This document shows, in pieces, positions 16,128-32,880 of a stretch of 32,880 nt of DNA. This DNA comes from a virus (lineage: Duplodnaviria > Heunggongvirae > Uroviricota > Caudoviricetes): positions 1-32,880 of the IMG/VR virus record IMGVR_UViG_2548876695_000022, one strand, 5' to 3'. The first letter of the stretch is position 1. Every line of letters starts with the position of its first letter. The notes beneath the pieces were generated by a model. The model was not told where the DNA came from, searched no databases, and saw only the letters and a list, made by a program, of their open reading frames with translations. Position numbers and translations under genes: made by a program.

Positions 16128-16136
16128 GTGAATTTG

Positions 16137-16307: not shown

Positions 16308-16415
16308 GATAAAGATCTCCTTTTTATGCATCTCTGCTTTACAGGAGACCGGGGAATATCATAGGATACGCCACGAGCTCGAAGTAAAGCATTGATGCAA
16401 GTTTTTACAGATTGA

Positions 16416-16454
16416 CCCAGCATAGTTCCAGCTATGCTGGGTTTCACTTTTATG
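16416..16454 (+). terminator. rho-independent terminator-like hairpin (+ strand)
   Basis: Perfect 10-bp stem CCCAGCATAG-ttccag-CTATGCTGGG followed by TTTCACTTTTATG; the exact window centre falls in this element. Confidence 0.45.
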
Positions 16455-16713: not shown

Positions 16714-16914
16714 ATGTATCGAAACATACGGTGCCGACACTGCAATAAGCTACTGGCACGGGCCAGTTTCAGTTATCTGGAAGTAAAATGTCCGCGCTGT
16801 AAAACCCTCAATCAAATCACATCTCCGAGCGCCACAGAGCACCCCACATACACAAGGAAATCCTGTCGTGGGGAACAGAAAGCAAGTCACATCCCGTATC
16901 ATCAGCACGCCTGA
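16714..16914 (+). CDS. com: Com zinc-finger translational activator of mom
   Basis: [35 protein letters not shown] matches the Mu Com zinc-finger pattern (IRCKNCNKLL...CPRCK); the 3' end overlaps the downstream gene as in Mu. Confidence 0.8.
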
Positions 16915-17605: not shown

Positions 17606-17644
17606 GCGCTTAAAAACTCATTCTAAAACTCAAAAGAAAAGCGC

Positions 17645-17725
17645 CGATTTAGTATCAAATAAGTTGCGTATCGGCGTTTTTCAGCGGTATCAAATGAAAT
17701 GCAAATCGGTATCAAAAAAATCGCC
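17645..17725. repeat. three direct repeats (G)GTATCAAA in the mom-distal intergenic region
   Basis: Copies start at 17652, 17686 and 17708, plus GTATCGG at 17668; candidate transposase end-binding sites of the Mu-like element or an operator for the downstream operon. Confidence 0.4.
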
Positions 17726-17747
17726 GCGCTATAAACAGCTAAAGCAG

Positions 17748-18404
17748 ATGCGGGAAACGCTGGCAAAAGCTGACCTTCCCCCGCGTAAGCGCCAGCGCCT
17801 TTTATGGCGTATTGCAAAGCTGGGCATTGTCGCAGCGGCAAAACGTCACCAGCGCCAGCAGGCGGCCCCGGACGGTACGCCGTGGGAGCCGCGCAAGCGT
17901 GGCAAAGGGAAGATGTTAAAAGGGCTGCCCAAGCTGTTGGCCGTGCGCGAAATGCCGGAGATTCAGGGGGTAAGAATTTACCTCAAGGGCGGGAACTACC
18001 GGAACGGGACGAAGCCCATCGCGGCGGGTCTGGTCGGCGCGGTCCAGCAGGACGGCGCACGGATCCAGATGAAAGCCAGTAACGCCCCGCGTAAGCCGCA
18101 GGCTGACAAGCCAGCGCTACCGCGACAGGCCAAGCGTCTGCGGGCGCTGGGTTACAAAACCCGCAAGGGCAAACGCTGGGTTAAGCCGTCCAGCAAGCAA
18201 ATCATGGAAACCATGAGCATGGCCCAGGCGGGATTACTGATTCGAAAACTGAAAGGCACACCCTCAAAACGCACATGGACCATTGATATTCCTGGGCGCG
18301 TTTTTCTGGGGGTGAGCAACGACGAATTTAACCAAATTATTGCGCGGCAAATGCAGGCAATCGGCTTCGGCTGGGACGTCAACGCGCAGCAAATCAGGGG
18401 GTAA
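17748..18404 (+). CDS. virion morphogenesis / tail completion protein (P2 gpS / Mu G-like)
   Basis: Pattern RKRQRLLWRIAK...QQAAPDGTPWEPRKRGKG...IPGRVFLGVSNDEF resembles the gpS-type tail completion family; start uncertain (ORF track begins with GTG at 17598; ATG at 17748 chosen, no strong RBS). Confidence 0.45.
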   Translation: MRETLAKADLPPRKRQRLLWRIAKLGIVAAAKRHQRQQAAPDGTPWEPRKRGKGKMLKGLPKLLAVREMPEIQGVRIYLKGGNYRNGTKPIAAGLVGAVQQDGARIQMKASNAPRKPQADKPALPRQAKRLRALGYKTRKGKRWVKPSSKQIMETMSMAQAGLLIRKLKGTPSKRTWTIDIPGRVFLGVSNDEFNQIIARQMQAIGFGWDVNAQQIRG

Positions 18405-18406
18405 AA

Positions 18407-19549
18407 ATGACCTGGCCGAATGTCAACGTCAGTCAGAAAAACCGCTTCAACGGCACAACGAACGACGTCGAGCGCGTCATCCTCTTTGTGGGTTACGGCG
18501 ACACTAACATCGGGAAAACCCAGTCGCTGAATACCGGCAGCGATCTGGATAAAGCCCTGGGCGACAAAGACAGCCCGTTAAAAAATATGGTGGCCGCAGC
18601 GGCCAATAACGCCGGTCAGAACTGGTTTGCTTACGTGCATGTGCTGGCAGAACCAGACAAGGAAGCCGAGGGCTATAAACCAGATGAAGACTGGATGAAC
18701 GCGGTCAAGATGGCCCAGAGCGTGGCATCCGTGGAAGGGGTTTTCCTGGTATTTGATACCGACGAAGTGGCAACCATCAACCGTGCAACGGAAATGCGTA
18801 TCACCTTGCAGGCTAATTATGGGCGATTTATCTGGTTTGGCCTTGCGATAGGCGGGCCGAAACAGGGCGAAGCATGGGCCGATTATGTGACGCGCCTGGC
18901 ACAACTCCAGGACGGTATTGCGTCACCGGGTGTGCAACTGGTCCCGCGTCTGTGGGGCAATGAACCCGGCGTCCTGGCCGGTCGCTTGTGTAACCGTTCG
19001 GTGACGGTGGCAGACAGCCCCGCCCGCGTTGCAACCGGCGCAGTCACCGCGCTGGGGCGTGACAAACTGCCGGTTGACGGGACGGGAGCCGAAATTGATC
19101 TGTCCGTGTTGCAGTCCCTGCAGGTGAACCGCTACAGCGTGCCGATGTGGTATCACGACTATGACGGCATCTACTGGGCTGACGGTCGCACCCTGGACGT
19201 TGAAGGCGGCGATTATCAGGTCATTGAAAACGTGCGCGTGGTTGATAAAGCATCCCGACGCGTCCGTCTGCGTGCTATCCCCAAAATTGCCGATCGTTCA
19301 CTGAACAGCACACCGGGCAGCATTGCCGCGCATGAAACCTATTTCGGCAAGCCGCTGCGTGAAATGGCGATTTCAACCCAGATCAATGGCGTCGAATTTC
19401 CGGGCGAAGTGAAGCCACCAAAGGACGGTGACATCACCATCACCTGGACCAGTAGCGAAGCGGTACAGATTTACCTTGTGGTTCGACCGTATGAGAGCGC
19501 GAAAGAAATCAGCGTCAGCATCGAACTGGACACCTCACTGGAGAGCTAA
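18407..19549 (+). CDS. putative tail sheath protein
   Basis: 380-aa ORF directly upstream of a tube-sized ORF in a tail module; assignment by size and position only. Confidence 0.45.
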   Translation: MTWPNVNVSQKNRFNGTTNDVERVILFVGYGDTNIGKTQSLNTGSDLDKALGDKDSPLKNMVAAAANNAGQNWFAYVHVLAEPDKEAEGYKPDEDWMNAVKMAQSVASVEGVFLVFDTDEVATINRATEMRITLQANYGRFIWFGLAIGGPKQGEAWADYVTRLAQLQDGIASPGVQLVPRLWGNEPGVLAGRLCNRSVTVADSPARVATGAVTALGRDKLPVDGTGAEIDLSVLQSLQVNRYSVPMWYHDYDGIYWADGRTLDVEGGDYQVIENVRVVDKASRRVRLRAIPKIADRSLNSTPGSIAAHETYFGKPLREMAISTQINGVEFPGEVKPPKDGDITITWTSSEAVQIYLVVRPYESAKEISVSIELDTSLES

Positions 19550-19552
19550 TCA

Positions 19553-20008
19553 ATGACTGAACGTATTAGCGGCGGATCGTTCGATGTGAACTACGACAGC
19601 ATCATGATTCACGTCGAAAACGCCACCGTCACCATTACGGATAACAGCGCCGTTGCGCAGTCGCGTGGCATCCCGAACGGCCACACGAAAGGGTCAGTTT
19701 CGGCGGATGTGGAAGTCGAAGTCGATTCCCAGAGCTTTAAAAAGTTTACCGCCGTTGCCCGTGCCGCAGGTTCCTGGCGAGCCATTCCGGCAAAGGACTT
19801 TTTGTTCTATGCCAATGCGGGGGATGACGAAGAAAAAATCGAGGTGTTTGGCTGTGTTCCGACGCTGTCCGACATCGTCAACATCAACCCCAACGAGGCC
19901 AGCAAAACCACGAAAAAAATTAAATTCATGGTGACAAGCCCGGACTTTGTCGCGATTGACGGCGTGCCGTACCTGTCAGCCCGTGACACTCGAGATCTGA
20001 AAGGCTGA
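19553..20008 (+). CDS. putative tail tube protein
   Basis: 151-aa ORF following the sheath-sized gene; assignment by size and position only. Confidence 0.45.
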   Translation: MTERISGGSFDVNYDSIMIHVENATVTITDNSAVAQSRGIPNGHTKGSVSADVEVEVDSQSFKKFTAVARAAGSWRAIPAKDFLFYANAGDDEEKIEVFGCVPTLSDIVNINPNEASKTTKKIKFMVTSPDFVAIDGVPYLSARDTRDLKG

Positions 20009-20012
20009 CACG

Positions 20013-20324
20013 ATGATGAACGGAGAAACGTCACTGCTTGAAAAGCTGTTGCTTATCGGGGCCGTGATCGGCCTGGGGCAACTGATGGTCAGCAATGAGC
20101 GAATCACAACCCGTCTGCTGGTCGGGCGGATGATTCTGGGATCTGCAGTCGCACCGCTGGCCGCAATCCCGCTGCTGAAATTCCCCGATATGCCGGAACT
20201 GGTCGTCATTGGGCTGGCCTGCGCCCTGGGCATTCTGGGAAGTGCGTTTATTGAGGCGGGGCTAAAGCGCTGCCTGGACATGTATATCAAGCGATGGGGG
20301 AGCAAGCGCAATGAAACTGAGTGA
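20013..20324 (+). CDS. holin (three predicted transmembrane segments)
   Basis: 103 aa with hydrophobic stretches LLLIGAVIGLGQLMV, LLVGRMILGSAVAPLAAIPLL and LVVIGLACALGILGSAFI and a charged C-terminus; immediately upstream of the endolysin. Confidence 0.6.
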   Translation: MMNGETSLLEKLLLIGAVIGLGQLMVSNERITTRLLVGRMILGSAVAPLAAIPLLKFPDMPELVVIGLACALGILGSAFIEAGLKRCLDMYIKRWGSKRNETE

Positions 20325-20649
20325 AAAACAGCAACTTTTTACGGTGATGATCGCCAGCCTGATTCATTTTGCCCAGGAAAAAGGCTATCGCCTGACGTTT
20401 GGCGAAGCGTACCGCACGCCGGAACAGGCCGCGCTTAACGCAAAAAAAGGGAGCGGCATTACTAACAGCCTGCATACCCAGCGCCTTGCGGTGGATTTTA
20501 ACCTGTTTATTAACGGCGAATACCAGACCGACAGCGCCGCATATCGCCCCCTGGGCGAATACTGGGAATCTATCGGCGGATCGTGGGGTGGACGTTTCAG
20601 TAAGCCGGACGGGAACCATTTCAGTCTTGAGCATAACGGGGTTCGCTGA
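20311..20649 (+). CDS. endolysin, peptidase M15-type zinc peptidase
   Basis: 112 aa with H...D...H zinc-site spacing (HTQRLAVDF ... DGNHFSLEH) characteristic of M15 cell-wall peptidases; overlaps the holin 3' end. Confidence 0.7.
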   Translation: MKLSEKQQLFTVMIASLIHFAQEKGYRLTFGEAYRTPEQAALNAKKGSGITNSLHTQRLAVDFNLFINGEYQTDSAAYRPLGEYWESIGGSWGGRFSKPDGNHFSLEHNGVR

Positions 20650-21032
20650 TGCGCAATTTGCTGGGTCTTTTGCTGATTCTGGCAGCTGCAATGTCAGCGG
20701 GCTGGCAGGCGCATGACTGGCACGACGCAAAGCTGAAACTCGCTGCCAGTGAAGCGGCAGAACAAACGCGCCAGATTGTTGTTGAGGTGACACAGCAGTC
20801 TGGTGAAGCGCTGGAAGCAAAACTCGCGGAGCTGAGGGCCAATGAAATTCATACGGAACGGGTTATCCGCACGGAAACCATTAAATCGGTTTTTAGCAAT
20901 GTTTGTGCTTCTGATGATTACGTCCGGTTGTTCAACGAAAGTGCAGATCAAGCCGAACGAAAATTATCAGGAAAACCAGCTGGCACTTTGCCCGGTCACG
21001 TTGCCACGTCTGGCCGGACCGACCGGAAGTGA
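20649..21032 (+). CDS. i-spanin (Rz-like)
   Basis: N-terminal transmembrane segment MRNLLGLLLILAAAMSAGW followed by a charged coiled-coil-like region; ATG overlaps the endolysin stop (TGATG). Confidence 0.6.
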   Translation: MRNLLGLLLILAAAMSAGWQAHDWHDAKLKLAASEAAEQTRQIVVEVTQQSGEALEAKLAELRANEIHTERVIRTETIKSVFSNVCASDDYVRLFNESADQAERKLSGKPAGTLPGHVATSGRTDRK

Positions 21033-21138
21033 CTTTGACGCGGCGCTGAAAGCCTACCGGCTGATGTATACCGACTGCGCCGCCCGACATAACGCCCTGG
21101 TGGGCATCATTCGACAACGTAAGGAATTAGCACAATGA
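20842..21138 (+). CDS. o-spanin (Rz1-like lipoprotein), overlapping i-spanin in the +1 frame
   Basis: Signal peptide plus lipobox-like LLMITSG-C; starts inside the i-spanin gene and extends beyond it; alternative start at 20899. Confidence 0.55.
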   Translation: MKFIRNGLSARKPLNRFLAMFVLLMITSGCSTKVQIKPNENYQENQLALCPVTLPRLAGPTGSDFDAALKAYRLMYTDCAARHNALVGIIRQRKELAQ

Positions 21139-21404
21139 GCAAATCGAAAAAAATCGCCATGACCGTGGCGGGCGTAAATCTGAGCTTTGAGCCGAATAAA
21201 ACCGCGTTCAACAACCTGCTTAACGAAATGACCATGACCAATAAAGTTGCCCCAATGGTGACGTATCTGGGCCGCATTGTTGATGCCGAGTGTAAAGAGG
21301 CGCTCAACAAGCTGATGGAAGATTATCCGGGCTGCGAAATGCAGATCGTCGAGAAGGTTAACGAAATTTACTCCCCAAAACTTGAGATCGAAGTAAAAAA
21401 CTGA
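21135..21404 (+). CDS. tail assembly chaperone (P2 gpE / lambda G-like)
   Basis: 89-aa ORF just upstream of the tape measure; ends on a slippery A_AAA_AAC heptamer with a -1 frame open to the tape-measure start. Confidence 0.6.
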   Translation: MSKSKKIAMTVAGVNLSFEPNKTAFNNLLNEMTMTNKVAPMVTYLGRIVDAECKEALNKLMEDYPGCEMQIVEKVNEIYSPKLEIEVKN

Positions 21405-21592
21405 CGGCGCGGGTAGCGGCCATTCGCACGAATGCCCTGGAGCAATACCTTGCCTTGCGCCGCTATTACCTCCCGCACGAAGACGACGACGAAGAAAGCA
21501 TCGCCCGCGCCCTGTGGCTGGATGAATATTTCGCCCAGACCCGCGCCAGTAAGACGGCGGAAGGGATAGCAATCGCATTTAACGGAAACTGA
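21395..21592 (+). other. programmed -1 ribosomal frameshift site and extension of the tail chaperone
   Basis: Heptamer A AAA AAC at 21395-21401, seven nt before the zero-frame stop; the -1 frame reads KKLTARVAAIRTNALEQYLALRRYYLPHEDDDEESIARALWLDEYFAQTRASKTAEGIAIAFNGN to a TGA at 21590-21592, 1 nt before the tape-measure ATG (21594). Confidence 0.5.
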
Positions 21593-21593
21593 T

Positions 21594-23708
21594 ATGAGCC
21601 ACCTGGATTTTACCCTGAGCCTGATCGATAAGCTGACGCGGCCATTAAAGACGGCCCAGTCTTCGCTGTCTGGCTTTGCTGAAAAATCGCAGGAGTCTTT
21701 TACAAAAATCGGGATTGGTGCGGCGGCTGTCTGGGGCGTGGCGCAGTCCATCGCGGGCGTGGTGGGTCCGGCGTATGAGATGAACGCCGCGCTTGCAGAA
21801 GTGGGTTCCAAAGGCGTAGCAGAGGACGCGCTGAAGCGTATGTCCGGCGAAGCCATGCGATTCAGTATGCGCTACGGCAAAGGGGCCGTTGATGTGGTCC
21901 GGTCAAGCTACGCGATGAAAGGCGCAATGGCGGGCCTGTCCGATCTGGACCTGCCCCGCGTTACCATCGCGGCCAATACCCTGGCCGCAGGCGTCAAGGC
22001 CAGCGGCGAAGAGGCAGGCGAATACATCGGCGCGATGGCGTCACGTTTCAACGCGGAATTGTCCAGTCTGGGGCATGTGCGTTTTGCCGAAGAGCTGGCA
22101 GGAAAAACGGCGTACATGGTGCAAAACTTCGGCGTGAAAATGCAGACCATGCAGGAGCTTATCGAGGGGACGAAAAGCGCCGGTGCTGACTTTGGCGTCA
22201 GCCTGGATGAACAGTTCGCCGTACTGGGTACGCTTTCGCGCACGCTGGGTACTGAGGCCAGCGGGATCTACGAGCAGTTTTTACGCAGCGCCCCGGCTGC
22301 CGCTGAAAAGCTGGGTATGAGCTTTGTCGATGCCACCGGAAAAATGCTGCCGATGGGCGACATTCTGCAAAAACTCCAGAACAAATACGGGCAGAGCATT
22401 GAAGGGAACGTCAAGGCACAACAGGCGCTGGATGCCGCGTTCGGTGGTGGTGCTGACGTTATCAAAAAGCTGTACGGCCAGCAGGATAAATTAAACCGCA
22501 GCATCACCGAGCTGGGCCGAAATGACGGGATGAAACGCGCCCAGGAAATGGCCGAACGAATGGCTGAGCCGTGGGAACGTATCAAAGCGACATTCTTTGC
22601 CATTCGCGTGGCGATTGGTAACACGCTGTTCCCTATCCTGTCGCCGCTGATGAACCGTATTGCCGACGTGGGGACAAAATTTGCCCGCTGGCTGGATATG
22701 TTCCCGAATATTGCCCGCTGGCTGGGTTACATCACCCTGGGCGTGCTGTCCTTCGGGTTGGCTGGGGCGGCGGTCAATATCGTGATGGGGGTCTTTGGCT
22801 TCACCATGACAGGGCTGGCCGCAATTGCAAAAGTGCTGGGCGGGGCATGGAAACTCCTGTTATGGACGCTCAACCTGTTGCGTCCGTCCCTGCTGACGAC
22901 GCGCATCGGTCTGGCTGCATTGTGGATCCAGTCAAAATTACTGGCGCTGTGGACGGGCGTCTGCCGCATCGCGCTTGCTGCATGGAATATCGCGTTAAAG
23001 GCCGGAGCCATTGCCATGCGGGTTTACGGTGCGGCGACCATGTTTGCCGGGGCGGCAATGCAACTCCTGATGAGTCCGATCACTCTGATCGTTGCCGGGC
23101 TGGCACTTCTGGCCGTGGGGGTCTGGTATGTCATCACCCACTGGGAAGAACTGGCGGCAGCAATCATGGATACGTCGGCTTTTGCCTGGGTGATGTCGGT
23201 CGCTGAACAGGTAGGCCAGGTGTTTGCGCAGGTCTGGCAGTCCATCACAGACGGCTGGGCCGTGGTGGTTGATTTCTTTGCCGGTCTTTCCCCGCTTGCC
23301 ACCTTTGAAGGGTTCGCACAAACCATCGGCGGGGTATTCAGCAAACTTTTTGACGTCCTCAAAAATACCTTTGCGTCTACCTATAACTGGATTGTCGAGA
23401 AGTTAAACAAGATCCCCGGCGTAAACATCGACCTGAAAACCGTTTCGCCACCGGCAGCGGCTGCCGTTCCGGCAAATGCGGTCATTCCTGACAGTGCTGC
23501 AGGTTCATCGAAGCTAAACAGCCCGTCCGTGCTGACGGGGAACCGAATTAATGCAGGCATCCCACGCGGCGGCCTGATGAGTCAGGTTAAAAACGACAGC
23601 AAAACCGCTGTTGATAACCGTAAAACGTGGGGCGATACCTACATCAACGCCCCCAATGGAATCACCCCGGCCCAGCTGGCTGAATGGCAGGAGCTTAACG
23701 CAGGATGA
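21594..23708 (+). CDS. tail tape measure protein
   Basis: 704 aa with a helical N-terminal region, central hydrophobic segments and position after the frameshifting chaperone. Confidence 0.8.
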   Translation: MSHLDFTLSLIDKLTRPLKTAQSSLSGFAEKSQESFTKIGIGAAAVWGVAQSIAGVVGPAYEMNAALAEVGSKGVAEDALKRMSGEAMRFSMRYGKGAVDVVRSSYAMKGAMAGLSDLDLPRVTIAANTLAAGVKASGEEAGEYIGAMASRFNAELSSLGHVRFAEELAGKTAYMVQNFGVKMQTMQELIEGTKSAGADFGVSLDEQFAVLGTLSRTLGTEASGIYEQFLRSAPAAAEKLGMSFVDATGKMLPMGDILQKLQNKYGQSIEGNVKAQQALDAAFGGGADVIKKLYGQQDKLNRSITELGRNDGMKRAQEMAERMAEPWERIKATFFAIRVAIGNTLFPILSPLMNRIADVGTKFARWLDMFPNIARWLGYITLGVLSFGLAGAAVNIVMGVFGFTMTGLAAIAKVLGGAWKLLLWTLNLLRPSLLTTRIGLAALWIQSKLLALWTGVCRIALAAWNIALKAGAIAMRVYGAATMFAGAAMQLLMSPITLIVAGLALLAVGVWYVITHWEELAAAIMDTSAFAWVMSVAEQVGQVFAQVWQSITDGWAVVVDFFAGLSPLATFEGFAQTIGGVFSKLFDVLKNTFASTYNWIVEKLNKIPGVNIDLKTVSPPAAAAVPANAVIPDSAAGSSKLNSPSVLTGNRINAGIPRGGLMSQVKNDSKTAVDNRKTWGDTYINAPNGITPAQLAEWQELNAG

Positions 23709-24040
23709 GTACCGAACCGTTATACATCGACCTTTTGATCACTGACGGCGATTTCACGCTGGACAGCGGCAACGAGCCGCGCCGTTGCGATAACCGCGAC
23801 AGCATCACCCAGGACATTATTCACAGCATTCTGGAAAGCGGTATCACCACCCGCCTGATCGGTGAACGCAGCCCGACAATGCGCGGTGACGTGCTGACGC
23901 AACTGTCCTTACTGGTGGAAAGCGACGAACGTCTGGTCCCAGGAACCATAGTGATCACCGAAGAAACCCTTTCGAGGTTGTATATCACGGCGGAAACCTA
24001 CGATTTCGGCCCTGTCAGTACAGAGGTTAACTATGACTGA
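23705..24040 (+). CDS. baseplate wedge protein (P2 gpW / T4 gp25-like)
   Basis: 111 aa, start overlaps the tape-measure stop; size and position before the J-like gene. Confidence 0.55.
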   Translation: MSTEPLYIDLLITDGDFTLDSGNEPRRCDNRDSITQDIIHSILESGITTRLIGERSPTMRGDVLTQLSLLVESDERLVPGTIVITEETLSRLYITAETYDFGPVSTEVNYD

Positions 24041-25217
24041 GAAACCCGACGTTGATTTCGAAAAGGTACTGAATGACAGCGGGATGCCCGCGACAGAGGC
24101 CGAAATTACGGCGGCATTTAAAGCCACCGTGCAGGCGGAAGGGTTCGTCACAAACACGTCGAGAATGTCACCTTTCTGGCGGCTGATTTCGAAGATTGTC
24201 ACCACGCCGGTGTTATGGCTGCGTGCGGCGCTGATCGATGTGGTTCTGCGCAATATGTTTGTTGCGACTGCCACCGGTCCCATGCTGCGCCTGCTGGCCT
24301 GGGCGGTTCATATCGAGCCTAAACCGGCCAGTGCTGCCGCTGGCGTGCTGCGATTCTTCAAGCTGAATGCGGCGGATGTGGTCGTCGTGCCTGCCGGAAC
24401 ACTGGTGCAAACAGAGCGCATTAACGGCGTGGTTTACGTGCTGGCCGTGAATGAAGACGTGACACTGCCTGCCGGGGTTGAAAGCGGGCTGGTTCCCGTC
24501 ACGGCGACCGGCACCGGCAGCGGCTATAACCTTGCGCCAGGCTATTACCGGATCTTACCTGTTGCAGTAGCTGGAATCGCCAGCGCGGTCAATGAGGACG
24601 AATGGCTGATTACGCCAGGGGCTAACGAGGAAAGCGACGACGAGCTGCGCGACCGCACCCGCAACCAGTTTAATCTGGTGGGGAATTACCACTCTGACGC
24701 TATCTACCGCAGCATGATTGCCAGCGTGCTGGGCCTGAGCATTGATCGCATCTACTTTTTGCACGATGCCCCGCGTGGGCCGGGTACGGCAAATGCTTAT
24801 CTGTTACTGGACAGCGGCGAAATATCACAGCCCTTTATTGATGCGGTTAACGATTATGTGAATACCCAGGGCCACCACGGACACGGTGATGATCTGCAGT
24901 GTTATGCCATGCCGGAAACCAGTCACACCCTGGCGGTTACTGTCTATGTCAAAAGCGTGGAAAACATGGAAGCGGAAGACCTGAGCGCGTTAAAAACCGG
25001 TATTACCGACCTGATTCGTTGCGCGTTTCGCGAGAACGCCAATTACGACGTTAAAAAGACGCAGCCCTATTCGCGCTATTCCTTTTCGAATCTGGGCCGC
25101 GAGATCCACAAGGCTTTTCCGGTTGTCGATTCACTGCATTTTTCACTAACGGATATTGTCAGCGAACTGTCGGTCCCGCGCCTGTCAGGGTTAACGGTGG
25201 AGATTGAAAATGACTGA
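24033..25217 (+). CDS. baseplate J-like protein
   Basis: 394 aa between the W-like and I-like genes, as in the P2 V-W-J-I-H-G operon. Confidence 0.6.
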   Translation: MTEKPDVDFEKVLNDSGMPATEAEITAAFKATVQAEGFVTNTSRMSPFWRLISKIVTTPVLWLRAALIDVVLRNMFVATATGPMLRLLAWAVHIEPKPASAAAGVLRFFKLNAADVVVVPAGTLVQTERINGVVYVLAVNEDVTLPAGVESGLVPVTATGTGSGYNLAPGYYRILPVAVAGIASAVNEDEWLITPGANEESDDELRDRTRNQFNLVGNYHSDAIYRSMIASVLGLSIDRIYFLHDAPRGPGTANAYLLLDSGEISQPFIDAVNDYVNTQGHHGHGDDLQCYAMPETSHTLAVTVYVKSVENMEAEDLSALKTGITDLIRCAFRENANYDVKKTQPYSRYSFSNLGREIHKAFPVVDSLHFSLTDIVSELSVPRLSGLTVEIEND

Positions 25218-25803
25218 GTTTTCGAAGTTGCTTTCCGGTCTGAAATTGCCGTCGTGGCTGAACAAAGGCGACCCCGCCAGGCTGTTGCGTGGCAGCGTGA
25301 AGTTCTGGTCGCAGGTGTACGGGTGGATCACCTGGCCGTTAAAGCAGTTTGACCCGCTGGTTTGCCCTGAGCCGCTGTTGAACCTGATTGCCTGGGAGCG
25401 CGACATCGATCGGTTTAAGGGGGAGCCGCTCGACATCTTCCGCAAGCGGGTGAGTTACGCATTTATCAATGCGCAGCAGGCCGGAGAGGTGGCGGGCTTT
25501 ATTGCCATTTTTGAGCGACTGGGGATTGGTTACGTTGAATTACTGGAACGGCAGGACGGACTCGACTGGGACGTGATTGTCGTTCGAGTGACAAGCAGCC
25601 AGGTTGCGGAAAATGGCGATCTCCTGCTGGAAATCATTCGCAAATATGGGCGCACATGCCGCCGTTACCAGTTTGAAGTAATCGACACCCTGCCACTGAA
25701 TATCAATATTGGCTGGTATCAGGGGGAATATATTTGCTGGCCTGCCACCCTGGGCGATGTGAATAACCAGTCAGAAGCAACATATAGCGCAAGTTTGAAG
25801 TAG
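25210..25803 (+). CDS. tail protein I-like (P2 gpI)
   Basis: Motif [16 protein letters not shown] resembles P2 gpI CPANLLPWLAWAFSVD; ATG at 25210 with GGTGGAG RBS (ORF track begins at TTG 25204). Confidence 0.6.
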
Positions 25804-25814
25804 AGGGAATATTA

Positions 25815-27779
25815 ATGTCACAGGCCGTCATTACAAAAGCATTTGCAGAGTGGAAAGCCCAGCAGGCAATTAATAACCAGCCCGTCACGCTGGATGAGTT
25901 TATTTTTGCTTATATTCCGGGGCTGGATGCTGACAAGCCGATTAATAATACTGAAACAACGCCAGCGGAAGATAAAATAGTTTGTCGTCAGGCGGTGAAT
26001 AAAGCCGGTGTTGTGAATGAAAACTCTGTCGTTTATTCCGTTACCCTGGGGGCGGATGTGGGCGATTTTGATTTCAACTGGATCGGGCTGGCAAATAAGG
26101 CAACGGGTACACTGGCGATGATTATTCACGCCCCGACCCAACGAAAAATTAAAAACGCAGACGGTCAGCAGGGAAACGTTCTTGTTCGTTCCATGCTGAT
26201 GGAATACAGCGGAGCCAGGGAAGCGACCGAAATTAACACTCCGGCAGAGACATGGCAGATTGATTTTACTGCCCGACTGGTGGGAATGGATGAACGCCAG
26301 CGCCGGGAAAATATCGATCTGTATGGCGCAGCGGCATTTTTTGATTCGGGCTATCTGGTCGCAAAGTCCGGCAATCAGTTTTTTGTCACAAAGGGGGCGG
26401 GATATGTCGCCGGATTGCGTGCCGAATTGCCCGCAAACTTCAATATCACAGTATCCGCGAAACCGACAAAAATCTGGCTTGATGTGAGCTGGACCGGGAC
26501 GTTAACAAGCGAATGGGCTGTACAGAGCAAAATTACTGTTGCTGCAGATCTTGCCGATTATGTGCTGGGCGGTGTGCAGCATTATGTCTTTGCGGTGGCG
26601 AGTATTGATGCTGCCGGAAATATCACTGACCTGCGCCCGAAAGGCACGCTAAATGACCAGGCGGCCAGCGATGCGCTGAAAAAGCATGAACAATCCCGAA
26701 ATCACCCTGATGCATCAACCAGTGAAAAGGGTTTTGTGCGGTTAAGCAGTGAAACGAACAGTGATTCCGAAGCGATGGCCGTCACGCCAAAAGCATTAAA
26801 AGCGGTGAATGAGAATGCAAATGGCCGCGTTCCGGCATCACGAAAAGTGAACGGCCATGCCCTGAATGGAGATATCAATGTCACTTCACGGGATATTTTT
26901 GACGGCCAGGTTATAGCGATTGGTGCAAATAAGAATCTGGATGATTACCAGGTACCGGGGCTTTATTTTCAGGAAGCGAACAACAATACCAGTGCAGCAA
27001 TGAATTACCCGGAGAATAGCGCGGGTTCTCTGATGGTACTGAGAGGTGCCGGAGTCACTCAGGTTTATCGTGTGTACAACAGCTCGCGCAGTTATTCGCG
27101 CAGCAAGTATTCAACGCTGGCATGGACGCCGTGGATGCCAGAAGATTCTTACCCTGTCGGCGCACCTATCCCCTGGCCATCGGATGTTACCCCGACAGGG
27201 TACGCCTTAATGCAGGGGCAGCCCTTTGATAAAGCGGTCTATCCATTGCTAGCGATTGCCTATCCTGCGGGGATTATCCCGGACATGCGAGGCCAGACGA
27301 TTAAGGGTAAACCGAACGGTCGCGCGGTACTCTCGTATGAACAGGATGGTGTTATATCGCATACCCACGGAGCCAGTATTTCCGATACCGATTTGGGGAC
27401 GAAATACACCAGCTCTTTTGATTATGGTTCAAAACCAACAACCAGTTTTGACTACGGCAATAAATCCTCCACTGAGGGTGGGTGGCACGCACATAACTTT
27501 CGTTATTGCGCAACGTCTGCATACCGGGATACCCCCGGTCAGGGGCTGGGGATGCATTCGTCTAATGTTTCATGGGCGGCGGGAGATCGCATTGAGGGAA
27601 GCGGTAATCATGCTCATGTGACATGGATCGGCCCTCATGATCACTGGGTGGGTATTGGTGCGCATAACCATTATGTGGTTATGGGCTATCACGGACATAC
27701 AGCGACCGTTCATGCCGCAGGAAATGCGGAAAATACCGTTAAAAATATTGCGTTTAACTACATTGTGAGGCTTGCCTGA
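25815..27779 (+). CDS. tail fibre protein (P2 gpH-like)
   Basis: 654 aa; [52 protein letters not shown] matches the conserved P2 H motif (EHEQSRRHPDAS...KGFTQLSSATNSTSETLAATPKAVK); His-rich C-terminal region. Confidence 0.8.
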
Positions 27780-28366
27780 TGACTTTTGAAATGACCGGAG
27801 AAAACCGGACAATTACCATCTATAACCTGCGTGCTGATACAAATGAATTTATCGGGAAAAGTGATGGGTTTATCCCTGCTAATACCGGTTTGCCTGCTAA
27901 CAGTACCAATATTGCGCCACCGCCGATGAAAGCCGGTTTTGTCGCTGTATTTAATTCTGCGTCAGAAAAATGGTCACTTGTTGAAGACCATCGCGGGAAA
28001 ATTGTTTACGACATTCTCACCGGGAAATCCATCACGATTGATGAATTAGGTCAGTTACCTGACGACGTTGTTTCCGTTGCGCCGGAAGGCCATTTTGTTA
28101 AATGGAATGGTAAAAAATGGGTGCATGATGCTGACGCAGAAAAAACGGCACAGATTACACAGGCTACACAGCAAAAAGACAGTCTTCTGGCGCTGGCTGC
28201 ATCAAAAATTGCCCCATTACAGGATGCTGTTGATCTGGATATTGCAACGGAAGAGGAAACAGCGCTTTTGCTGGCGTGGAAAAAATACAGGGTTTTGATT
28301 AATCGTATTAAGCCAGAAGATGCGCCAGATATTGACTGGCCGGAGGTTCCGGGCGATGTGGCGTGA
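27779..28366 (+). CDS. tail fibre assembly chaperone (lambda Tfa / P2 gpG-like)
   Basis: 195 aa, [26 protein letters not shown]...GLPANSTNIAPP...ALLLAWKKYRVLINRIKPEDAPDIDWPEVP, highly characteristic of Tfa proteins; ATG overlaps the fibre stop. Confidence 0.85.
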   Translation: MTFEMTGENRTITIYNLRADTNEFIGKSDGFIPANTGLPANSTNIAPPPMKAGFVAVFNSASEKWSLVEDHRGKIVYDILTGKSITIDELGQLPDDVVSVAPEGHFVKWNGKKWVHDADAEKTAQITQATQQKDSLLALAASKIAPLQDAVDLDIATEEETALLLAWKKYRVLINRIKPEDAPDIDWPEVPGDVA

Positions 28367-29084
28367 GTCGGTTATAAAGATTGCTGATGATATGGGGGCG
28401 CTGGCCTGTTCAATTGTGCCAGCGCATCCCTGGGTTTACGGTCTGGGACAGAACACCGATTCAGGCGGTTATCTCAGTCCGGCCAATGCGCTGGGATACC
28501 TTGCTAAAAAGCTGTTATCCGGTGGCGGTAGCGGTAGCGGTGATGTCATCGTCATGATGGTGGCGGAGAATACCCACGATGCTTTTATGCAGGGACTGAA
28601 TAAACTGTCCACCGTATTTCCGGCCCCGGTATTTACGCAGGTAAGCCGTATGGCCGCAGCCGCCGCAGAACTCAGCACGGTAAAAATGCAGTTGCCGGTT
28701 AAAGCCGATGTATTGCCAGCCAGTGCGCCGTTATCAGTCTCAACCAACCGGCTGGCGCTGAATGCCCAGCGTGTTGCCGCCGCGCAGCTGGCCGCCGCAG
28801 TCAGTACCACCACAACAGATCTAAAAAACCAGGTGACGGGATTTATTCAGGAACGGGCCGGTTTGCTGTCCTCGCTCAGCCAGGGACTGGACGACCTGAA
28901 AGCCGCCAGTGCGAATATTTTTGCATTCAGTTACAGCGGGAGTTATGCCGTTGCTGCCGCAGAATTGCTGAAAGGCATCCCGCAAACAACGGCAGTGCAT
29001 ACCGCCGCGATGATGTTTATCGGGGATTCGTTATCTGACTTAGGGAAGATGCTACATGAGCCAGACCGCATTACTCGCGCTTGA
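28356..29084 (+). CDS. hypothetical Ala-rich protein (tail-module position)
   Basis: Start chosen at ATG 28356 with a GGAGG RBS (ORF track begins at 28320); no recognisable motif. Confidence 0.4.
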   Translation: MWRESVIKIADDMGALACSIVPAHPWVYGLGQNTDSGGYLSPANALGYLAKKLLSGGGSGSGDVIVMMVAENTHDAFMQGLNKLSTVFPAPVFTQVSRMAAAAAELSTVKMQLPVKADVLPASAPLSVSTNRLALNAQRVAAAQLAAAVSTTTTDLKNQVTGFIQERAGLLSSLSQGLDDLKAASANIFAFSYSGSYAVAAAELLKGIPQTTAVHTAAMMFIGDSLSDLGKMLHEPDRITRA

Positions 29085-29598
29085 TGGTGAAGGGATCGCC
29101 ATGCAGAACATGCTGGTTTCACCTTCCATGCAGTTTCAGGAAAAGGACCAGTCGGGCCAGACATCGAGCACGGCCAATGCTGAACAGGGTATCAAGGCCA
29201 AAGAGCTGCGCGTATCGGGTCTGGTGACATTCGACGACGAAGCCGTCTTACAGCGGCTTTTCCAGCTGGCATCCGCGACCGAAGCCAGCGGCGCACTGAA
29301 AAAGTACCGCGTCGCCAATGCGACGGCGACGGCTATCAACCTTCGTGAAGCCACGTTTACCGGTCAGATTGATGCCGTACCGCAGGAGGATCGCCTTGCC
29401 TGGCAGGTAAGTTTCACCCTGCGTGAAAAAGGCAGCGTCCCGGAAAAACGACAGGCCCGAAAAGGCAACGCGACGGCCAGCACCAAGCAAACAGGGGCAA
29501 AGGGCGCGGGTCCGGCTGCCGGAGCTGATGAGCCAGCCGACAAAATGAGCTGGTTTGAAGAAAAGGTCTTAAAGCCGGTCAACGATGCGCTGGGGTAA
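29056..29598 (+). CDS. hypothetical protein (tail-module position)
   Basis: 180-aa ORF overlapping the upstream gene end; no recognisable motif. Confidence 0.4.
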   Translation: MSQTALLALDGEGIAMQNMLVSPSMQFQEKDQSGQTSSTANAEQGIKAKELRVSGLVTFDDEAVLQRLFQLASATEASGALKKYRVANATATAINLREATFTGQIDAVPQEDRLAWQVSFTLREKGSVPEKRQARKGNATASTKQTGAKGAGPAAGADEPADKMSWFEEKVLKPVNDALG

Positions 29599-29605
29599 TT
29601 AAACG

Positions 29606-31330
29606 ATGAAACCAATTAAACGCCTGTACCTTTCCTCTGATCCGGTCCATCTGATTGACTGCAATATCGTGCTGGAGCTGAACGCGTGCGGTCGGGGGTT
29701 TATTACGGCGGGGACAGAGACAGATTACACCGGCAAAATGGTGCGTATCGATGTTGGTTATGATGGTCTGGTCCTGCGCTGGTTTACCGGGTACGTCGAA
29801 CGGTCACAGCCTGCTGATAATGGAACATGCCGGTTGTTCGTGCGTGAGCTGGTCGGCATCTTTGATAAATTGTGGCCGTGTTCTTTCCAGCATCCAACGT
29901 TGCGCCAGATTACTGACTGGATAAGTGAGCAAAGCGGGCTGACCGTCACAACGCCGGTCGGCGCTGCTTATGCAGATAAACCGATCCCCCACTTTACGCA
30001 CAGCGGCACGGGCTATCAGCTTTTTGCCAGTCTGGGCCGTGCATTTTCAGTGACGGATTATCTTTGGTATCAGTTGCCGGACGGGGATGTCTTCGTCGGC
30101 GCTGCGGAGCATAGTCTTTTTGCGGGAAAACCAGTGGAGATCCCGCACGAATTTAGCCAGGAATCGGCAGGCGGAAATTCAATGGTTGTGCCAATGATTC
30201 AGAGCCTGCGCCCGGGTGCGGAGGTAAACGGCCAGCGGCTGAACCAGGTCCGGCTAAATAACGATGACATGGCAATTACCTGGCAGCCCCGCAACAAAGC
30301 CAACGGCCAGCCATTGCAAAAATCACCCATTCAGCGGCAGATTGAAAACGCATTCCCGGAGCTGGCAAGCGGCCTGCATCTTCCAAGATTCGCTAGGGTG
30401 GAAGCGCCAAGCGAGGATGTTTCAGGGGGGGATATTGCCGATCCATTCCGCCCACGCTATGCCGTGGATCTCCAGCTGCTTGACGAAGACGGCAAGCCAG
30501 CCGCAAATACGCCGATCTATTCTGCCGTTCCACTACCTGTGCCAATGGCGGGCAGCGAGTCAGGAATGTTTCAGTTTCCGCCCCCTGGCACGCTGGTTGA
30601 AGTTGGGTTCACTGAGGGGCGGCAGGATAAGCCCTTTGTGCGTCAGATTATGGCGGAGGGTCATAACCTGCCAGCGGTTAAACCCGGTGAGCAGTTGCAG
30701 CAACAGCGCGATGGTGTATCGCAGCGCGTGACGGTTGCCGGAGACTGGGAACGCCAGACGGATCAGACAATCCGCGAAAACTCCATGACTCGCGAAGTCA
30801 CCACCGACGAAGAGATCCGCAAAGTGGTTGCCCGTGAAACTACGGTCCAGGCAACAGATAAAACAACCGTGCTTGGCACGGCCACACTTCTGGCCGGGGC
30901 GGTCGTTCATATCAGCGAGGGGGATTACAGCGTCGGCACATCCGGCAACCTGACAGTAACCTGCAGCAAGGACAATTCCGTCAGTGTTGGCCGGAACGTG
31001 AAACGGGATGTCGCGGGCAATGTTACAGACGACGTGAAAGGGGATGTCACGTCAAACGTCAGCGGCGCACTGACTGAAAAAATCAGCGGCATTCGCCGAA
31101 GTGTGGCCCAGGCGCAACAACTGATTGCCCCGGTGGTAAAGCTGGGAAGCGAAGAGATTAACGTCCTGACACTGCTCACCGACACCCTGGACGTGGTGAG
31201 GGAGCTGGCAGAGACTGCCGCATCACATACTCACCCCAATACGGGGGCCAGTGGGCAGGCGGCGCAGTTCACCGCAACGGCCAATAAAACCGGCACATTG
31301 AAAAGCAAATACGGCCCCCTGATAGCCTGA
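29606..31330 (+). CDS. baseplate hub / central spike fusion-like protein (gpD-like N-terminus, beta-helical spike-like C-terminus)
   Basis: 574 aa; C-terminal region has repetitive V-x-G-x-V-T/S segments (GRNVKRDVAGNVTDDVKGDVTSNVSG) and an HxH tip motif (SHTHPNTG), as seen in spike apices. Confidence 0.5.
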   Translation: MKPIKRLYLSSDPVHLIDCNIVLELNACGRGFITAGTETDYTGKMVRIDVGYDGLVLRWFTGYVERSQPADNGTCRLFVRELVGIFDKLWPCSFQHPTLRQITDWISEQSGLTVTTPVGAAYADKPIPHFTHSGTGYQLFASLGRAFSVTDYLWYQLPDGDVFVGAAEHSLFAGKPVEIPHEFSQESAGGNSMVVPMIQSLRPGAEVNGQRLNQVRLNNDDMAITWQPRNKANGQPLQKSPIQRQIENAFPELASGLHLPRFARVEAPSEDVSGGDIADPFRPRYAVDLQLLDEDGKPAANTPIYSAVPLPVPMAGSESGMFQFPPPGTLVEVGFTEGRQDKPFVRQIMAEGHNLPAVKPGEQLQQQRDGVSQRVTVAGDWERQTDQTIRENSMTREVTTDEEIRKVVARETTVQATDKTTVLGTATLLAGAVVHISEGDYSVGTSGNLTVTCSKDNSVSVGRNVKRDVAGNVTDDVKGDVTSNVSGALTEKISGIRRSVAQAQQLIAPVVKLGSEEINVLTLLTDTLDVVRELAETAASHTHPNTGASGQAAQFTATANKTGTLKSKYGPLIA

Positions 31331-31535
31331 CAAAAAAGCGGCATAACCGCACACCTCACCAGACACCACAGAACGCGCCACAGCAGGCGCAAAGATTAAA
31401 GGTCGCCACCGTGCGGCCTTTCTTTCGTTCGTTCAACAGCGGCCCACAGCGTAAGCGACAGCAGGCAAACGGAAGCGGATCCAGGACGGAAACGGCGCTA
31501 CACCGCACCCGCCTGCGCAGTTTGGATCATAAAAA

Positions 31536-31824
31536 TTTTGCAAAAGAAATTTTGTGCAAAGCACCCCGCCAGCCTGCGCCGCTGCTGGGCTTTTGCATCC
31601 TGCGGGCGTTGCACTCTGCGCAAAGATTTGCAGCACTTTGCAAAAGTCATCGCGCCGCCAGCTACTAACTGACTGGATAACATGATGTTTTTAAAAGGAT
31701 CGTTTTGGTTTCCGTGACGATCAAAATGATTAGGTGGTATCCGATGGTTTTCGGGGGCGGATATCGTGAAGCCTTGTGCGGTGAGGGCTGGCGGCTAGTT
31801 TGCTTTGATTTGGGTTTTGCAAAA
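31536..31824. repeat. array of palindromic TTTTGCAAAA-type motifs in a non-coding spacer
   Basis: TTTTGCAAAA at 31536-31545 and 31815-31824, TTTGCAAAAG at 31637-31646, with variants TTTTGTGCAAAG, CTTTTGCAT and GCGCAAAGATTTGCAGCA; no convincing ORF. Confidence 0.4.
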
Positions 31825-31914
31825 TGATGCACGAAGTTTTGATAAAAGGATCTCTAGCTAAGGGGGAGGGGAACGTATAAAAACCCCCGCCCTCTGGGTG
31901 ATATTTTGTTCTAT

Positions 31915-32880
31915 TTATAGAAGTTTACTTACTGAAATCAGTTTGGGTGATTTAATGCCAATCTCACATAATGTTGTATGATGTGCTTCACGCTCAGTTT
32001 CCTGATAATAGGTGGCTATCCATTCCGTATTTTCACTAACAATGCTATGTATAAAAGAAAAGTAGGGAACATCTACAGATGATAACGAATGGCCGATGAT
32101 GATGATTTCGTCTACGTTGCTGAGATTTTTAAAAAATTTAGCGCTGTCAGCAATGACTTTTTCAGTATTCTTAAAAGAACAAGTGAAGTATTTATTAATA
32201 GTCTGCTTTCCCATTTCATAAGAGTGATCGTAATTATCAGCCATACACTGACGCCACTCTTCAAGTTCTTCATCGGTTGCATTTTCGGGCGGGACTGCTT
32301 CCTTTTCTTCAAAGTTGATAGGGTCAATACCATGACCTAAAATCAACTGTTGATCTGATGATGCTTTTCCATGGATATATAAAATTTGTCTATCATCAAT
32401 ACCATAGTATTTCTGAAGAGTCTCAGTATAATTAAAACTGATAAAGATAGAGTCAGAATCGATACGCAATCTTTTATTTAAATTAAGTTCGGGGTAGTTA
32501 ACCTGCAATATAAATGACTTGAATTGTGTTAAAAGCCCTTCGGTTAAATTTTTTAGTATACGTTCCATTTCAATGCTTAATGAGCCCCAGTCCTTGTCAC
32601 GAAAATCAGGGCTGCTAATTTGGGGTAAAAGATAGCAAAACTCTTCGAGCACTGACTCTGTATCCAGACCCGCTAAGCTGTTTTCGAAATCAGACCAAAG
32701 AAAATGTTTTGACTTATCAACTGCGGAAAGTTTAGGGGGTAAGTCAGTAAATCCCATAAAATCAACCAAGTGATCGTAAATGTCTTGGTCTTTCTTCCGA
32801 AGATAATCCCCAAATGAGAAATAGCTCGTGTCAAGTTCGTGATGCAGATCAAACCCATTCCCGATGATGTATAGCTTCAT
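31915..32880 (-). CDS. AbiH-like abortive-infection protein
   Basis: 321 aa, N-terminal MKLYIIGNGFDLHHELDTSYFSFGDYL matches the AbiH-family motif as remembered; visibly AT-rich compared with the flanking phage genes; ATG is the last 3 nt of the window. Confidence 0.6.
   Translation of the reverse strand: MKLYIIGNGFDLHHELDTSYFSFGDYLRKKDQDIYDHLVDFMGFTDLPPKLSAVDKSKHFLWSDFENSLAGLDTESVLEEFCYLLPQISSPDFRDKDWGSLSIEMERILKNLTEGLLTQFKSFILQVNYPELNLNKRLRIDSDSIFISFNYTETLQKYYGIDDRQILYIHGKASSDQQLILGHGIDPINFEEKEAVPPENATDEELEEWRQCMADNYDHSYEMGKQTINKYFTCSFKNTEKVIADSAKFFKNLSNVDEIIIIGHSLSSVDVPYFSFIHSIVSENTEWIATYYQETEREAHHTTLCEIGIKSPKLISVSKLL

What the first reader, a model, noticed from the sequence alone, without database searches (positions are those of the whole stretch)
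31915..32880. AT-rich AbiH-like abortive-infection gene at the window edge
The only long - strand gene outside the invertible segment is strongly AT-rich relative to the phage genes and begins MKLYIIGNGFDLHHELDTSYFSFGDYL, the N-terminal signature I associate with AbiH-family proteins. Its start codon is the last 3 nt of the window, so its promoter and any partner genes lie outside what I can see. It may be the first gene of a larger defence island beside the tail module.
Basis: partly seen in the sequence, partly recalled or inferred. Interest (0 to 1): 0.6.

Follow-up and report, generated by a model that had tools for sequence, protein, structure and literature searches.

The report
Prophage-borne AbiH (SIR2-like) defence gene
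The gene at the window edge is an intact, already-annotated member of the AbiH family of single-gene anti-phage "abortive infection" proteins, carried as a stand-alone AT-rich cargo gene at the very end of a P2-family prophage in E. coli; it is ordinary rather than the start of a larger defence island.

Summary

The "larger defence island" idea fails. In 19 complete E. coli genomes carrying this sequence, three of which I inspected, the DNA beyond 32880 holds about 165 bp of phage DNA. That stretch carries a terminator hairpin, a P2-type Int arm and an IHF region. Next come the att core, which is the terminator of the CyaR sRNA, and then the core gene yegQ/trhP.

The gene sits on a cassette of about 1.1 kb that related Salmonella phages (SI7, SW3, SW5) lack.

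Most likely function: a single-protein lysogenic-conversion defence that consumes NAD+ when another phage infects. The biochemistry is inferred, not shown. Novelty is low.

The parts
31915..32880 (-). AbiH-family coding sequence, 321 aa, a stand-alone SIR2-like domain. Residues invariant across homologues: G7-N8-G9-F10-D11, F149-N150, H170, G182-H183 and G263-H264-S265...D270.
31827..31914 (-). 3' flank of the AbiH cassette. Homology to the Salmonella Irrigatiovirus phages stops at about 31826. The flank holds only a weak hairpin with a T-run (31888-31900), and no convincing terminator was found.
   Evidence: The blastn match to SI7 ends at L001 15527, which is window 31826. Terminator scan. 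RNA fold z-score -0.35.
31331..31826 (.). Conserved non-coding spacer of the phage backbone, lying between the last tail gene and the cargo cassette. It is 92% identical to Salmonella phages SI7, SW3 and SW5, carries a terminator-like hairpin for the late operon at 31398-31421 (+), and holds a cluster of TTTTGCAAAA palindromes.
29606..31330 (+). Last late gene of the P2-family prophage, 574 aa. It is annotated 'baseplate protein' in phage SI7 and has a weak Phage_base_V-like stretch. It marks the end of the tail module that the cargo gene abuts.

Best explanation
The gene is a single-gene lysogenic-conversion (moron) cassette of a P2-family prophage related to Irrigatiovirus. The prophage is integrated at the P2-type att site in the 3' end of the CyaR sRNA gene, next to yegQ/trhP. 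The cassette is about 1.1 kb and AT-rich. It lies between the conserved spacer after the last tail gene and the terminator hairpin plus Int P-arm of attP. This is the slot where phage P2 itself carries ogr.

Its product is a stand-alone 321-aa AbiH-family protein with a SIR2-like (sirtuin / 'SIRim') Rossmann fold and no fused sensor domain. The most likely mode of action is as follows. The protein is made at a low level in the lysogen. It is switched on when an unrelated phage infects, probably by a phage component or by oligomerisation. It then consumes NAD+, using the invariant Asn150 and His170 (or His183) in the pocket lined by the Gly7-Asn8-Gly9 and Gly263-His264-Ser265 loops. That aborts the infection and protects both the clonal population and the resident prophage.

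Shown here: family membership, the fold, the conserved residues, the cargo anatomy and the absence of partner genes. Inferred: the defence phenotype of this particular protein, the NADase chemistry, the trigger and the promoter.
For: Family and fold:
- Pfam AbiH, full length, 205 bits against a cut-off of 30.9. PADLOC AbiH E = 2e-29. All 56 aligned homologues hit PF14253.
- AF2 model with pLDDT 88.9 and pTM 0.83.
- The invariant motifs each sit straight after a beta-strand, in the same order as the sirtuin motifs GAG / TQNID / LHG / GTS.

Literature:
- AbiH is placed in the SIRim subfamily with ThsA and DSR2, whose conserved Asn and His are catalytic (bioRxiv 10.1101/2024.09.18.613514).
- AbiH homologues give measured phage protection in Vibrio (5.7 logs) and in S. 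thermophilus (bioRxiv 10.1101/2024.06.14.598830; PMC12322248).

Cargo anatomy:
- GC is 36.5% against 54.6%.
- Phage SI7 has the same tail end, spacer, attP arm and integrase but no AbiH gene.
- The att core is repeated at both prophage ends. The core, P arm and IHF region are near-identical to the annotated attP of P2. CyaR overlaps the core.
- P2 is itself annotated with the lysogenic-conversion exclusion genes old and tin.

Selection:
- The protein is identical in the E. coli genomes inspected, and all 19 with this prophage tail end carry the gene.
- A 92%-identical orthologue sits at the same site in Salmonella, with dN/dS 0.36.

Single-gene nature:
- Neighbours of homologues differ completely between contexts.
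- Nearly all of the 150 best cluster representatives are 290-345 aa, so there are no fusions to sensor domains.
Against: - No experiment exists for this protein. The 2026 review still lists the AbiH mechanism as unknown.
- Sequence-profile methods did not link it to SIR2. There was no Pfam SIR2 or SIR2_2 hit at E <= 10. hhalign against E. coli CobB or a CobB profile gave probability below 1%. PDB sequence searches found nothing. The SIR2 assignment therefore rests on a predicted structure.
- I could not superpose coordinates, so the equivalence of N150 and H170 with the catalytic Asn and His of SIR2 is inferred. Two invariant His residues compete. The Asn-to-His spacing (20 or 33 residues) is shorter than in ThsA (40).
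- No convincing sigma-70 promoter was found in the 75 bp between the upstream hairpin and the ATG, so expression is unproven.
- No homologue was found by tblastn in 50,697 deposited phage genomes, so phage carriage of AbiH is not common among isolated phages.
Confidence: 0.6

Rival explanations
1. It is a SIR2-like enzyme that defends, or otherwise acts, through targeted NAD-dependent modification rather than bulk NAD+ depletion. Candidates are ADP-ribosylation or deacylation of a phage or host protein or nucleic acid.
Against: The characterised defence SIR2s cited in the papers read here (ThsA, DSR2) act by NAD+ depletion. There is no Zn-ribbon (no conserved CxxC pairs in the sequence) and no obvious peptide-binding cleft typical of deacylases. 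No target candidate is encoded nearby.
Confidence: 0.2
2. It is one component of a multi-gene defence system or island, with partners beyond the window edge.
For: The gene abuts the window end, so partners could not be seen from the window alone. Some homologues sit in defence-rich islands next to HNH or PIN genes.
Against: The genomes inspected show only non-coding att and CyaR sequence and then the core gene yegQ upstream, and the tail gene downstream. Neighbours of homologues are not conserved. The literature treats AbiH as a one-gene system (bioRxiv 10.1101/2024.06.14.598830).
Confidence: 0.04
3. It is a silent or decaying passenger: horizontally acquired AT-rich DNA that is not expressed (for example H-NS-silenced) and has no current function.
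For: No recognisable promoter lies between the upstream hairpin and the ATG. The very low GC content is of the kind that H-NS silences in E. coli (general knowledge, not tested here). In the window's source genome a Mu-like insertion disrupts the host prophage.
Against: The reading frame is intact and the protein is identical across the unrelated strains inspected. dN/dS is 0.36 against the Salmonella orthologue. Every family-invariant residue is retained. A Shine-Dalgarno GGAG is correctly spaced.
Confidence: 0.1
4. It serves the prophage's own life cycle, for example as an addiction/stabilisation toxin or a modulator of host metabolism during induction, rather than excluding other phages.
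For: It lies next to attP and in the same orientation as int and the repressor gene. In the circular phage it would therefore lie downstream of int. An NAD-consuming enzyme is potentially toxic.
Against: No antitoxin-like small ORF accompanies it. A bidirectional terminator hairpin separates it from the att/int side. Closely related phages (SI7, SW3, SW5) do without it. Tested family members score as anti-phage defences.
Confidence: 0.06

Closest known systems
AbiH of Lactococcus lactis biovar diacetylactis S94 (Prevots et al. 1996) and the Pfam family PF14253 / DefenseFinder-PADLOC 'AbiH' built on it
   Same: Full-length match to the family profile. A single gene of about 320-350 aa with an N-terminal GNGFD motif. 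It is carried on a mobile element. Tested homologues in Lactococcus, S. thermophilus and Vibrio give abortive-infection-type phage resistance.
   Different: The protein comes from a Gram-negative host. The PADLOC AbiH model matches only part of the protein in its best stretch (residues 119-308). It is carried by a P2-family prophage rather than a chromosome, ICE or plasmid. This protein has not been tested.
Defence-associated SIR2 ('SIRim') NADases: ThsA (Thoeris), DSR1/DSR2, SIR2-HerA (Nezha), SIR2-Avs5, SIR2-APAZ/pAgo, human FAM118B (SIRanc)
   Different: There is no detectable sequence-profile similarity. There is no fused or partnered sensor (no SLOG, HerA, STAND, Argonaute or long C-terminal domain), so it is the bare domain with helical inserts. 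The Asn-His spacing is shorter. NADase activity has not been demonstrated for any AbiH.
Phage P2 lysogenic-conversion exclusion genes old, tin and Z/fun
   Same: A non-essential, compositionally deviant gene carried by a P2-family prophage that is expected to exclude unrelated phages. It has the same integrase/att type as P2.
   Different: The proteins and mechanisms are unrelated. The position in the genome differs: this gene lies between the last tail gene and the attP P-arm, not at the old/tin site after gene A or the Z/fun site after the fibre genes.

Membership tests
AbiH (Pfam PF14253; PADLOC/DefenseFinder AbiH) | Match to the family profile above the curated threshold, over the full length of the profile | tested here: met
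   PF14253 gives E = 2.4e-60 and 205.3 bits against a cut-off of 30.9, covering residues 3-291 on profile positions 1-260 of 260. PADLOC PDLC02345 AbiH gives E = 2.1e-29.
AbiH (Pfam PF14253; PADLOC/DefenseFinder AbiH) | Stand-alone protein of about 290-350 aa with no fused domains | tested here: met
   The protein is 321 aa with one Pfam domain. Nearly all of the 150 best 50%-cluster representatives are 290-345 aa and match along their whole length.
AbiH (Pfam PF14253; PADLOC/DefenseFinder AbiH) | Family-invariant residues retained (GNGFD, FNYT, IHG, GHG, GHSxxxxD) | tested here: met
   All are present and invariant in 56 homologues of 41-92% identity, and in a Bacillus cereus plasmid AbiH that is 34% identical.
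AbiH (Pfam PF14253; PADLOC/DefenseFinder AbiH) | Acts as a single-gene system, with no conserved partner gene | tested here: met
   The neighbours here are a tail gene and the att site, CyaR and yegQ. Homologues elsewhere have unrelated neighbours.
AbiH (Pfam PF14253; PADLOC/DefenseFinder AbiH) | Confers phage resistance with an abortive-infection phenotype | not testable with these tools
   This needs plating and one-step growth assays. It has been shown only for other family members (Prevots 1996, cited via PMC13064643; PMC12322248; bioRxiv 10.1101/2024.06.14.598830).
SIR2 superfamily (defence-type 'SIRim' branch) | SIR2-type Rossmann fold | tested here: met
SIR2 superfamily (defence-type 'SIRim' branch) | Sequence-profile similarity to SIR2 families (PF02146, PF13289) | tested here: not met
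   No SIR2 Pfam hit at E <= 10 for the protein or for any of 56 homologues. hhalign against CobB, as a single sequence or as a low-diversity profile, gave probability below 1%. PDB phmmer and hmmsearch found no sirtuin.
SIR2 superfamily (defence-type 'SIRim' branch) | Catalytic Asn and His in the NAD pocket | tested here: inconclusive
   Invariant N150 follows strand 145-148 and invariant H170 follows strand 166-168, as in the sirtuin TQNID...LHG arrangement. H183 is also invariant. Residue-level superposition could not be done.
SIR2 superfamily (defence-type 'SIRim' branch) | NAD+ hydrolysis on activation | not testable with these tools
   Needs a biochemical assay.
Classical sirtuin deacylases (CobB/SIRT type) | Cys4 Zn-ribbon module | tested here: not met
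   The sequence has four scattered Cys residues, no CxxC pair, and none of them is in the conserved-residue list.
P2-family prophage cargo (moron / lysogenic conversion gene) | Lies inside the prophage borders, deviates in composition, and is absent from close relatives of the phage | tested here: met
   The att core repeats bracket the element and the gene lies 166 bp inside attR. GC is 36.5% against 54.6%. Phage SI7 has the same flanks without the gene.
P2-family prophage cargo (moron / lysogenic conversion gene) | Own promoter and terminator, expressed from the prophage | tested here: inconclusive
   A hairpin upstream insulates the gene from the att side and GGAG is a plausible ribosome-binding site. 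No consensus-like promoter lies between the hairpin and the ATG, and only a weak 3' hairpin was found.

The most novel reading that the evidence does not exclude
AbiH may be the minimal defence sirtuin: a bare SIR2-like domain that senses infection through its own helical inserts. It might act not by bulk NAD+ depletion but by NAD-dependent modification of a specific phage or host target. If so, this E. coli prophage copy would be a genetically tractable model for settling a mechanism that has been open since 1996, because it sits in the best-equipped phage-host system with a natural single-gene cassette.
Probability: 0.2. Interest if true: 0.55.

Novelty: already known. Interest (0 to 1): 0.15.

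Why it matters
It adds little that is new. The gene is already annotated as an AbiH family protein, and standard defence finders would flag it.

Its modest value is practical. It is a clean natural example of a P2-family prophage carrying a one-gene SIR2-like defence at a defined cargo slot next to attP. It is conserved between E. coli (including O103, O111 and O45 strains) and Salmonella. The biochemical mechanism and trigger of AbiH remain unknown, so an E. coli copy would be a convenient test object.

For annotating this window, the useful result is negative: there is no defence island beyond the edge. The prophage ends about 190 bp further on, inside the CyaR sRNA terminator.

Tried and rejected
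- **Sequence-level link to SIR2.** I tried Pfam at E <= 10 on the protein and on 56 homologues, PDB phmmer and profile hmmsearch, hhalign of the AbiH alignment against E. coli CobB, and hhalign of a 180-sequence AbiH alignment against a CobB profile. All were negative. The CobB homologue search returned only sequences at least 83% identical, so that profile was too shallow. This was a poor use of a capped search.
- **Other libraries.** NCBIfam has no model that hits. PHROGs gives only an unnamed family, phrog_19951. Rfam finds nothing inside the window.
- **Promoter.** The one consensus-like site upstream (L001 16734-16706) lies within the P-arm/IHF part of attP and upstream of a terminator hairpin. 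I do not accept it as the gene's promoter. CyaR read-through driving AbiH was considered and judged unlikely, because two hairpins intervene.
- **3' terminator.** The fold of the 3' flank is no better than shuffled sequence.
- **AbiH in deposited phages.** tblastn found none in 50,697 records. BFVD gave one weak unnamed structural match.
- **Housekeeping-operon reading with yegQ.** Rejected on the att and CyaR anatomy.
- **Literature on this protein.** A search for WP_000780870 found nothing.

Full report
**1. The observation**

The minus strand of 31915-32880 carries a 321-codon ORF that begins MKLYIIGNGFDLHHELDTSYFSFGDYL. Its ATG is the last three bases of the window. GC content is 36.5% (GC3 35%), against 54.6% for the adjoining phage genes (17734-31330) and a GC3 of 61% for the neighbouring tail gene.

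The ORF is not a chance feature. At this base composition a stop-free run of 321 codons has probability about 1e-10. The longest run in 1000 shuffles was 173 codons, and the other five frames hold 14-43 stops.

The ATG is the true start. In the full genome no alternative start codon lies in the 37 codons between the upstream in-frame stop and this ATG. A GGAG sits 8 nt upstream. All homologues begin MK(T)LY.

**2. What the protein is**

- Pfam AbiH (PF14253) matches end to end: E = 2.4e-60, 205 bits against a cut-off of 30.9, profile positions 1-260 of 260.
- PADLOC's AbiH model matches at E = 2e-29.
- PHROGs gives only an unnamed family, phrog_19951. NCBIfam gives nothing.
- The identical protein is WP_000780870.1, which RefSeq names 'bacteriophage abortive infection AbiH family protein'.
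- The family is large. There are 2806 50%-identity cluster representatives at E <= 1e-3 and 1538 at E <= 1e-10. Nearly all of the 150 best are 290-345 aa and match along their whole length, so they are stand-alone proteins.
- Homologues of 41-57% identity occur across Enterobacterales, Vibrio, Bacteroidota and others, and on 302 plasmids. tblastn found none in 50,697 deposited phage genomes.

**3. Fold and likely chemistry**

- the SAMD9 SIR2 domain
- Avs5-SIR2
- FAM118B
- classical sirtuins

The residues invariant across homologues are G7-N8-G9-F10-D11, F149-N150, H170, G182-H183 and G263-H264-S265...D270. Each motif directly follows a predicted beta-strand (strands 2-6, 145-148, 166-168 and 258-262). 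The order is the same as the sirtuin motifs GAG, TQNID, LHG and GTS. This correspondence is my inference, because I could not superpose coordinates. There is no Zn-ribbon.

Sequence-profile methods did not recover the relationship.

The literature agrees with the fold assignment:

- Another study places AbiH in the 'SIRim' branch with ThsA and DSR2, whose conserved Asn and His are catalytic (bioRxiv 10.1101/2024.09.18.613514).
- AbiH homologues have measured anti-phage activity in Vibrio, where the phage anti-defence proteins Tlaloc and Enki counter them (bioRxiv 10.1101/2024.06.14.598830), and in S. thermophilus (PMC12322248).

**4. Surroundings**

Window 17734-32880 is 100% identical to E. 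coli 2011C-4251, NZ_CP027388.1. There the gene is the last gene of a prophage of about 34 kb lying between yegR and yegQ. The gene order is: integrase, repressor, cox, replication genes, ogr, P2-type portal/terminase/capsid, tail genes, then AbiH. The tail end and spacer are 92% identical to Salmonella phages SI7, SW3 and SW5, which belong to Peduoviridae, genus Irrigatiovirus.

A 22-bp direct repeat, AAAAAATAAGCCCGTGTAAGGG, brackets the element. This core, the IHF-region spacer and the Int P-arm (GATGTGGTCAATGTGTGGAC) are near-identical to the annotated attP of phage P2. The core is the 3' terminator of the sRNA CyaR (Rfam RF00112, 100.7 bits). E. coli K-12 has the P2 remnant PR-X at the same spot.

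Going beyond window base 32880, the sequence runs as follows:

1. 75 bp of leader.
2. A 9-bp-stem hairpin with T-runs on both strands, in the position where P2 has its ogr/F-operon terminator.
3. The P arm.
4. The att core and CyaR.
5. yegQ/trhP, whose stop codon lies 336 bp from the AbiH ATG.

Two other unrelated strains show the same arrangement. All 19 complete E. coli genomes that have this prophage tail end also have the gene. A Salmonella enterica prophage at yegQ carries a 92%-identical orthologue, with dN/dS 0.36.

Phage SI7 goes from the same spacer straight to a terminator hairpin, Int arm sites and the integrase. The AbiH gene is therefore part of an inserted cassette of about 1.1 kb, covering window 31827-32880 plus roughly 75-105 bp more. 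There is no partner gene and no defence island.

**5. How it most likely works**

Shown here:

- an intact cargo gene under purifying selection
- AbiH family membership
- a SIR2-like predicted fold with invariant candidate active-site residues
- no sensor domain and no partner gene

Inferred: the lysogen makes the protein at a low level. Infection by a heterologous phage activates it, through a phage component or oligomerisation as for other defence SIR2s. It then consumes NAD+ and aborts the infection. This would act as a lysogenic-conversion exclusion function, comparable in role to the old and tin genes of P2 (annotated).

My confidence by step is roughly:

| Step | Confidence |
|---|---|
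| Family membership | about 0.97 |
| Cargo anatomy | about 0.9 |
| Defence function | about 0.75 |
| NADase chemistry | about 0.45 |

Rivals are a targeted NAD-dependent modification (0.2), a silent passenger gene (0.1), a role in the prophage's own life cycle (0.06), and a multi-gene system (0.04, contradicted by the flanks).

The promoter was not identified. The only consensus-like site lies within the P-arm/IHF part of attP, upstream of the hairpin.

**6. Comparison with known systems and novelty**

The gene passes every AbiH membership test that can be run in silico. It works like, and is probably a distant branch of, the defence SIR2 NADases. However, it fails the sequence-profile test for SIR2 families, and its chemistry is untested.

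Phage-encoded AbiH has already been noted in gut phage catalogues (bioRxiv 10.1101/2024.10.26.620412). The protein itself is already annotated. Verdict: already known, and interest is low. The one open question it touches, the mechanism and trigger of AbiH, is a property of the whole family and not of this locus.

**7. Side observations**

- The window is a composite of two prophages. Bases 1-17733 are the right part of a Mu-like prophage whose end (...GCCGCGCTATA) is inserted 14 bp upstream of a tail gene of the P2-family prophage.
- In the reference strain the same P2-family prophage carries a 925-aa ORF at the old/tin position with no Pfam or PADLOC hit.
- A cluster of TTTTGCAAAA palindromes lies in the conserved spacer at 31536-31824.

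Noticed in passing
window 1-17733, junction at 17733/17734: The window joins two prophages. Bases 1-17733 are the right ~17.7 kb of a Mu-like prophage (tail genes, invertible fibre segment, recombinase, com/mom-like genes), ending ...GCCGCGCTATA. It is inserted 14 bp upstream of a tail gene of the P2-family prophage that carries AbiH. No complete E. coli genome in the collection contains this junction, so in the source strain the P2-family prophage is probably split and defective.
   Followed up: partly
L001 16657-16835 (the 76-255 bp beyond window base 32880): A terminator-like hairpin with T-runs on both strands, an Int P-arm, an IHF-region spacer and a 22-27 bp att core near-identical to the annotated attP of phage P2. 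The core is the terminator stem of the sRNA CyaR (Rfam, 100.7 bits). E. coli K-12 has the cryptic P2 remnant PR-X at the same place.
   Followed up: yes
L002 17138-19915 (E. coli 2011C-4251, same prophage, outside the window): A 925-aa ORF (WP_249926060.1) lies between the replication endonuclease gene and ogr. This is the position where P2 carries its exclusion genes tin and old. It has no Pfam hit above threshold and no PADLOC hit. It could be an uncharacterised defence cargo and is more novel than the AbiH gene.
   Followed up: partly
window 31536-31824: The palindrome TTTTGCAAAA occurs at 31536, 31636 (as CTTTGCAAAA) and 31815, and TTGTGCAAA at 31552. All six matches to TTTGCAMAA in the 32.9-kb window fall within these 290 bp, against 1.2 expected. 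They lie in a non-coding spacer that is 92% identical to Salmonella phages SI7, SW3 and SW5. They are possibly protein-binding sites; their function is unknown.
   Followed up: partly
window 13523-15580: A 685-aa DUF6645 protein is encoded just after the recombinase of the Mu-like prophage, in a stretch of lower GC (about 48-54%). It may be accessory cargo of that phage.
   Followed up: no
window 15814-16534 (-): Two adjacent minus-strand ORFs of 123 and 115 aa correspond to a gene annotated as frameshifted (a pseudogene) in the near-identical Mu-like prophage of strain 6817.
   Followed up: no
L001 18382-18976: A ParD/ParE-RelE toxin-antitoxin pair sits between yegP and yegQ in strains 2011C-4251 and JB2. 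It is absent from K-12 MG1655 and GN06156, so it is a small variable insertion next to the prophage attachment region.
   Followed up: no
L005-L009 (Klebsiella and related contigs) and L014 (pSC138): AbiH homologues of 45-56% identity sit in other mobile contexts. One is a CP4-57-like integrative island, where the gene lies between HNH-nuclease genes. Another is on conjugative plasmids, directly after a PIN-domain gene whose stop abuts the AbiH start. The PIN-AbiH pairing on plasmids might be a two-gene variant.
   Followed up: no
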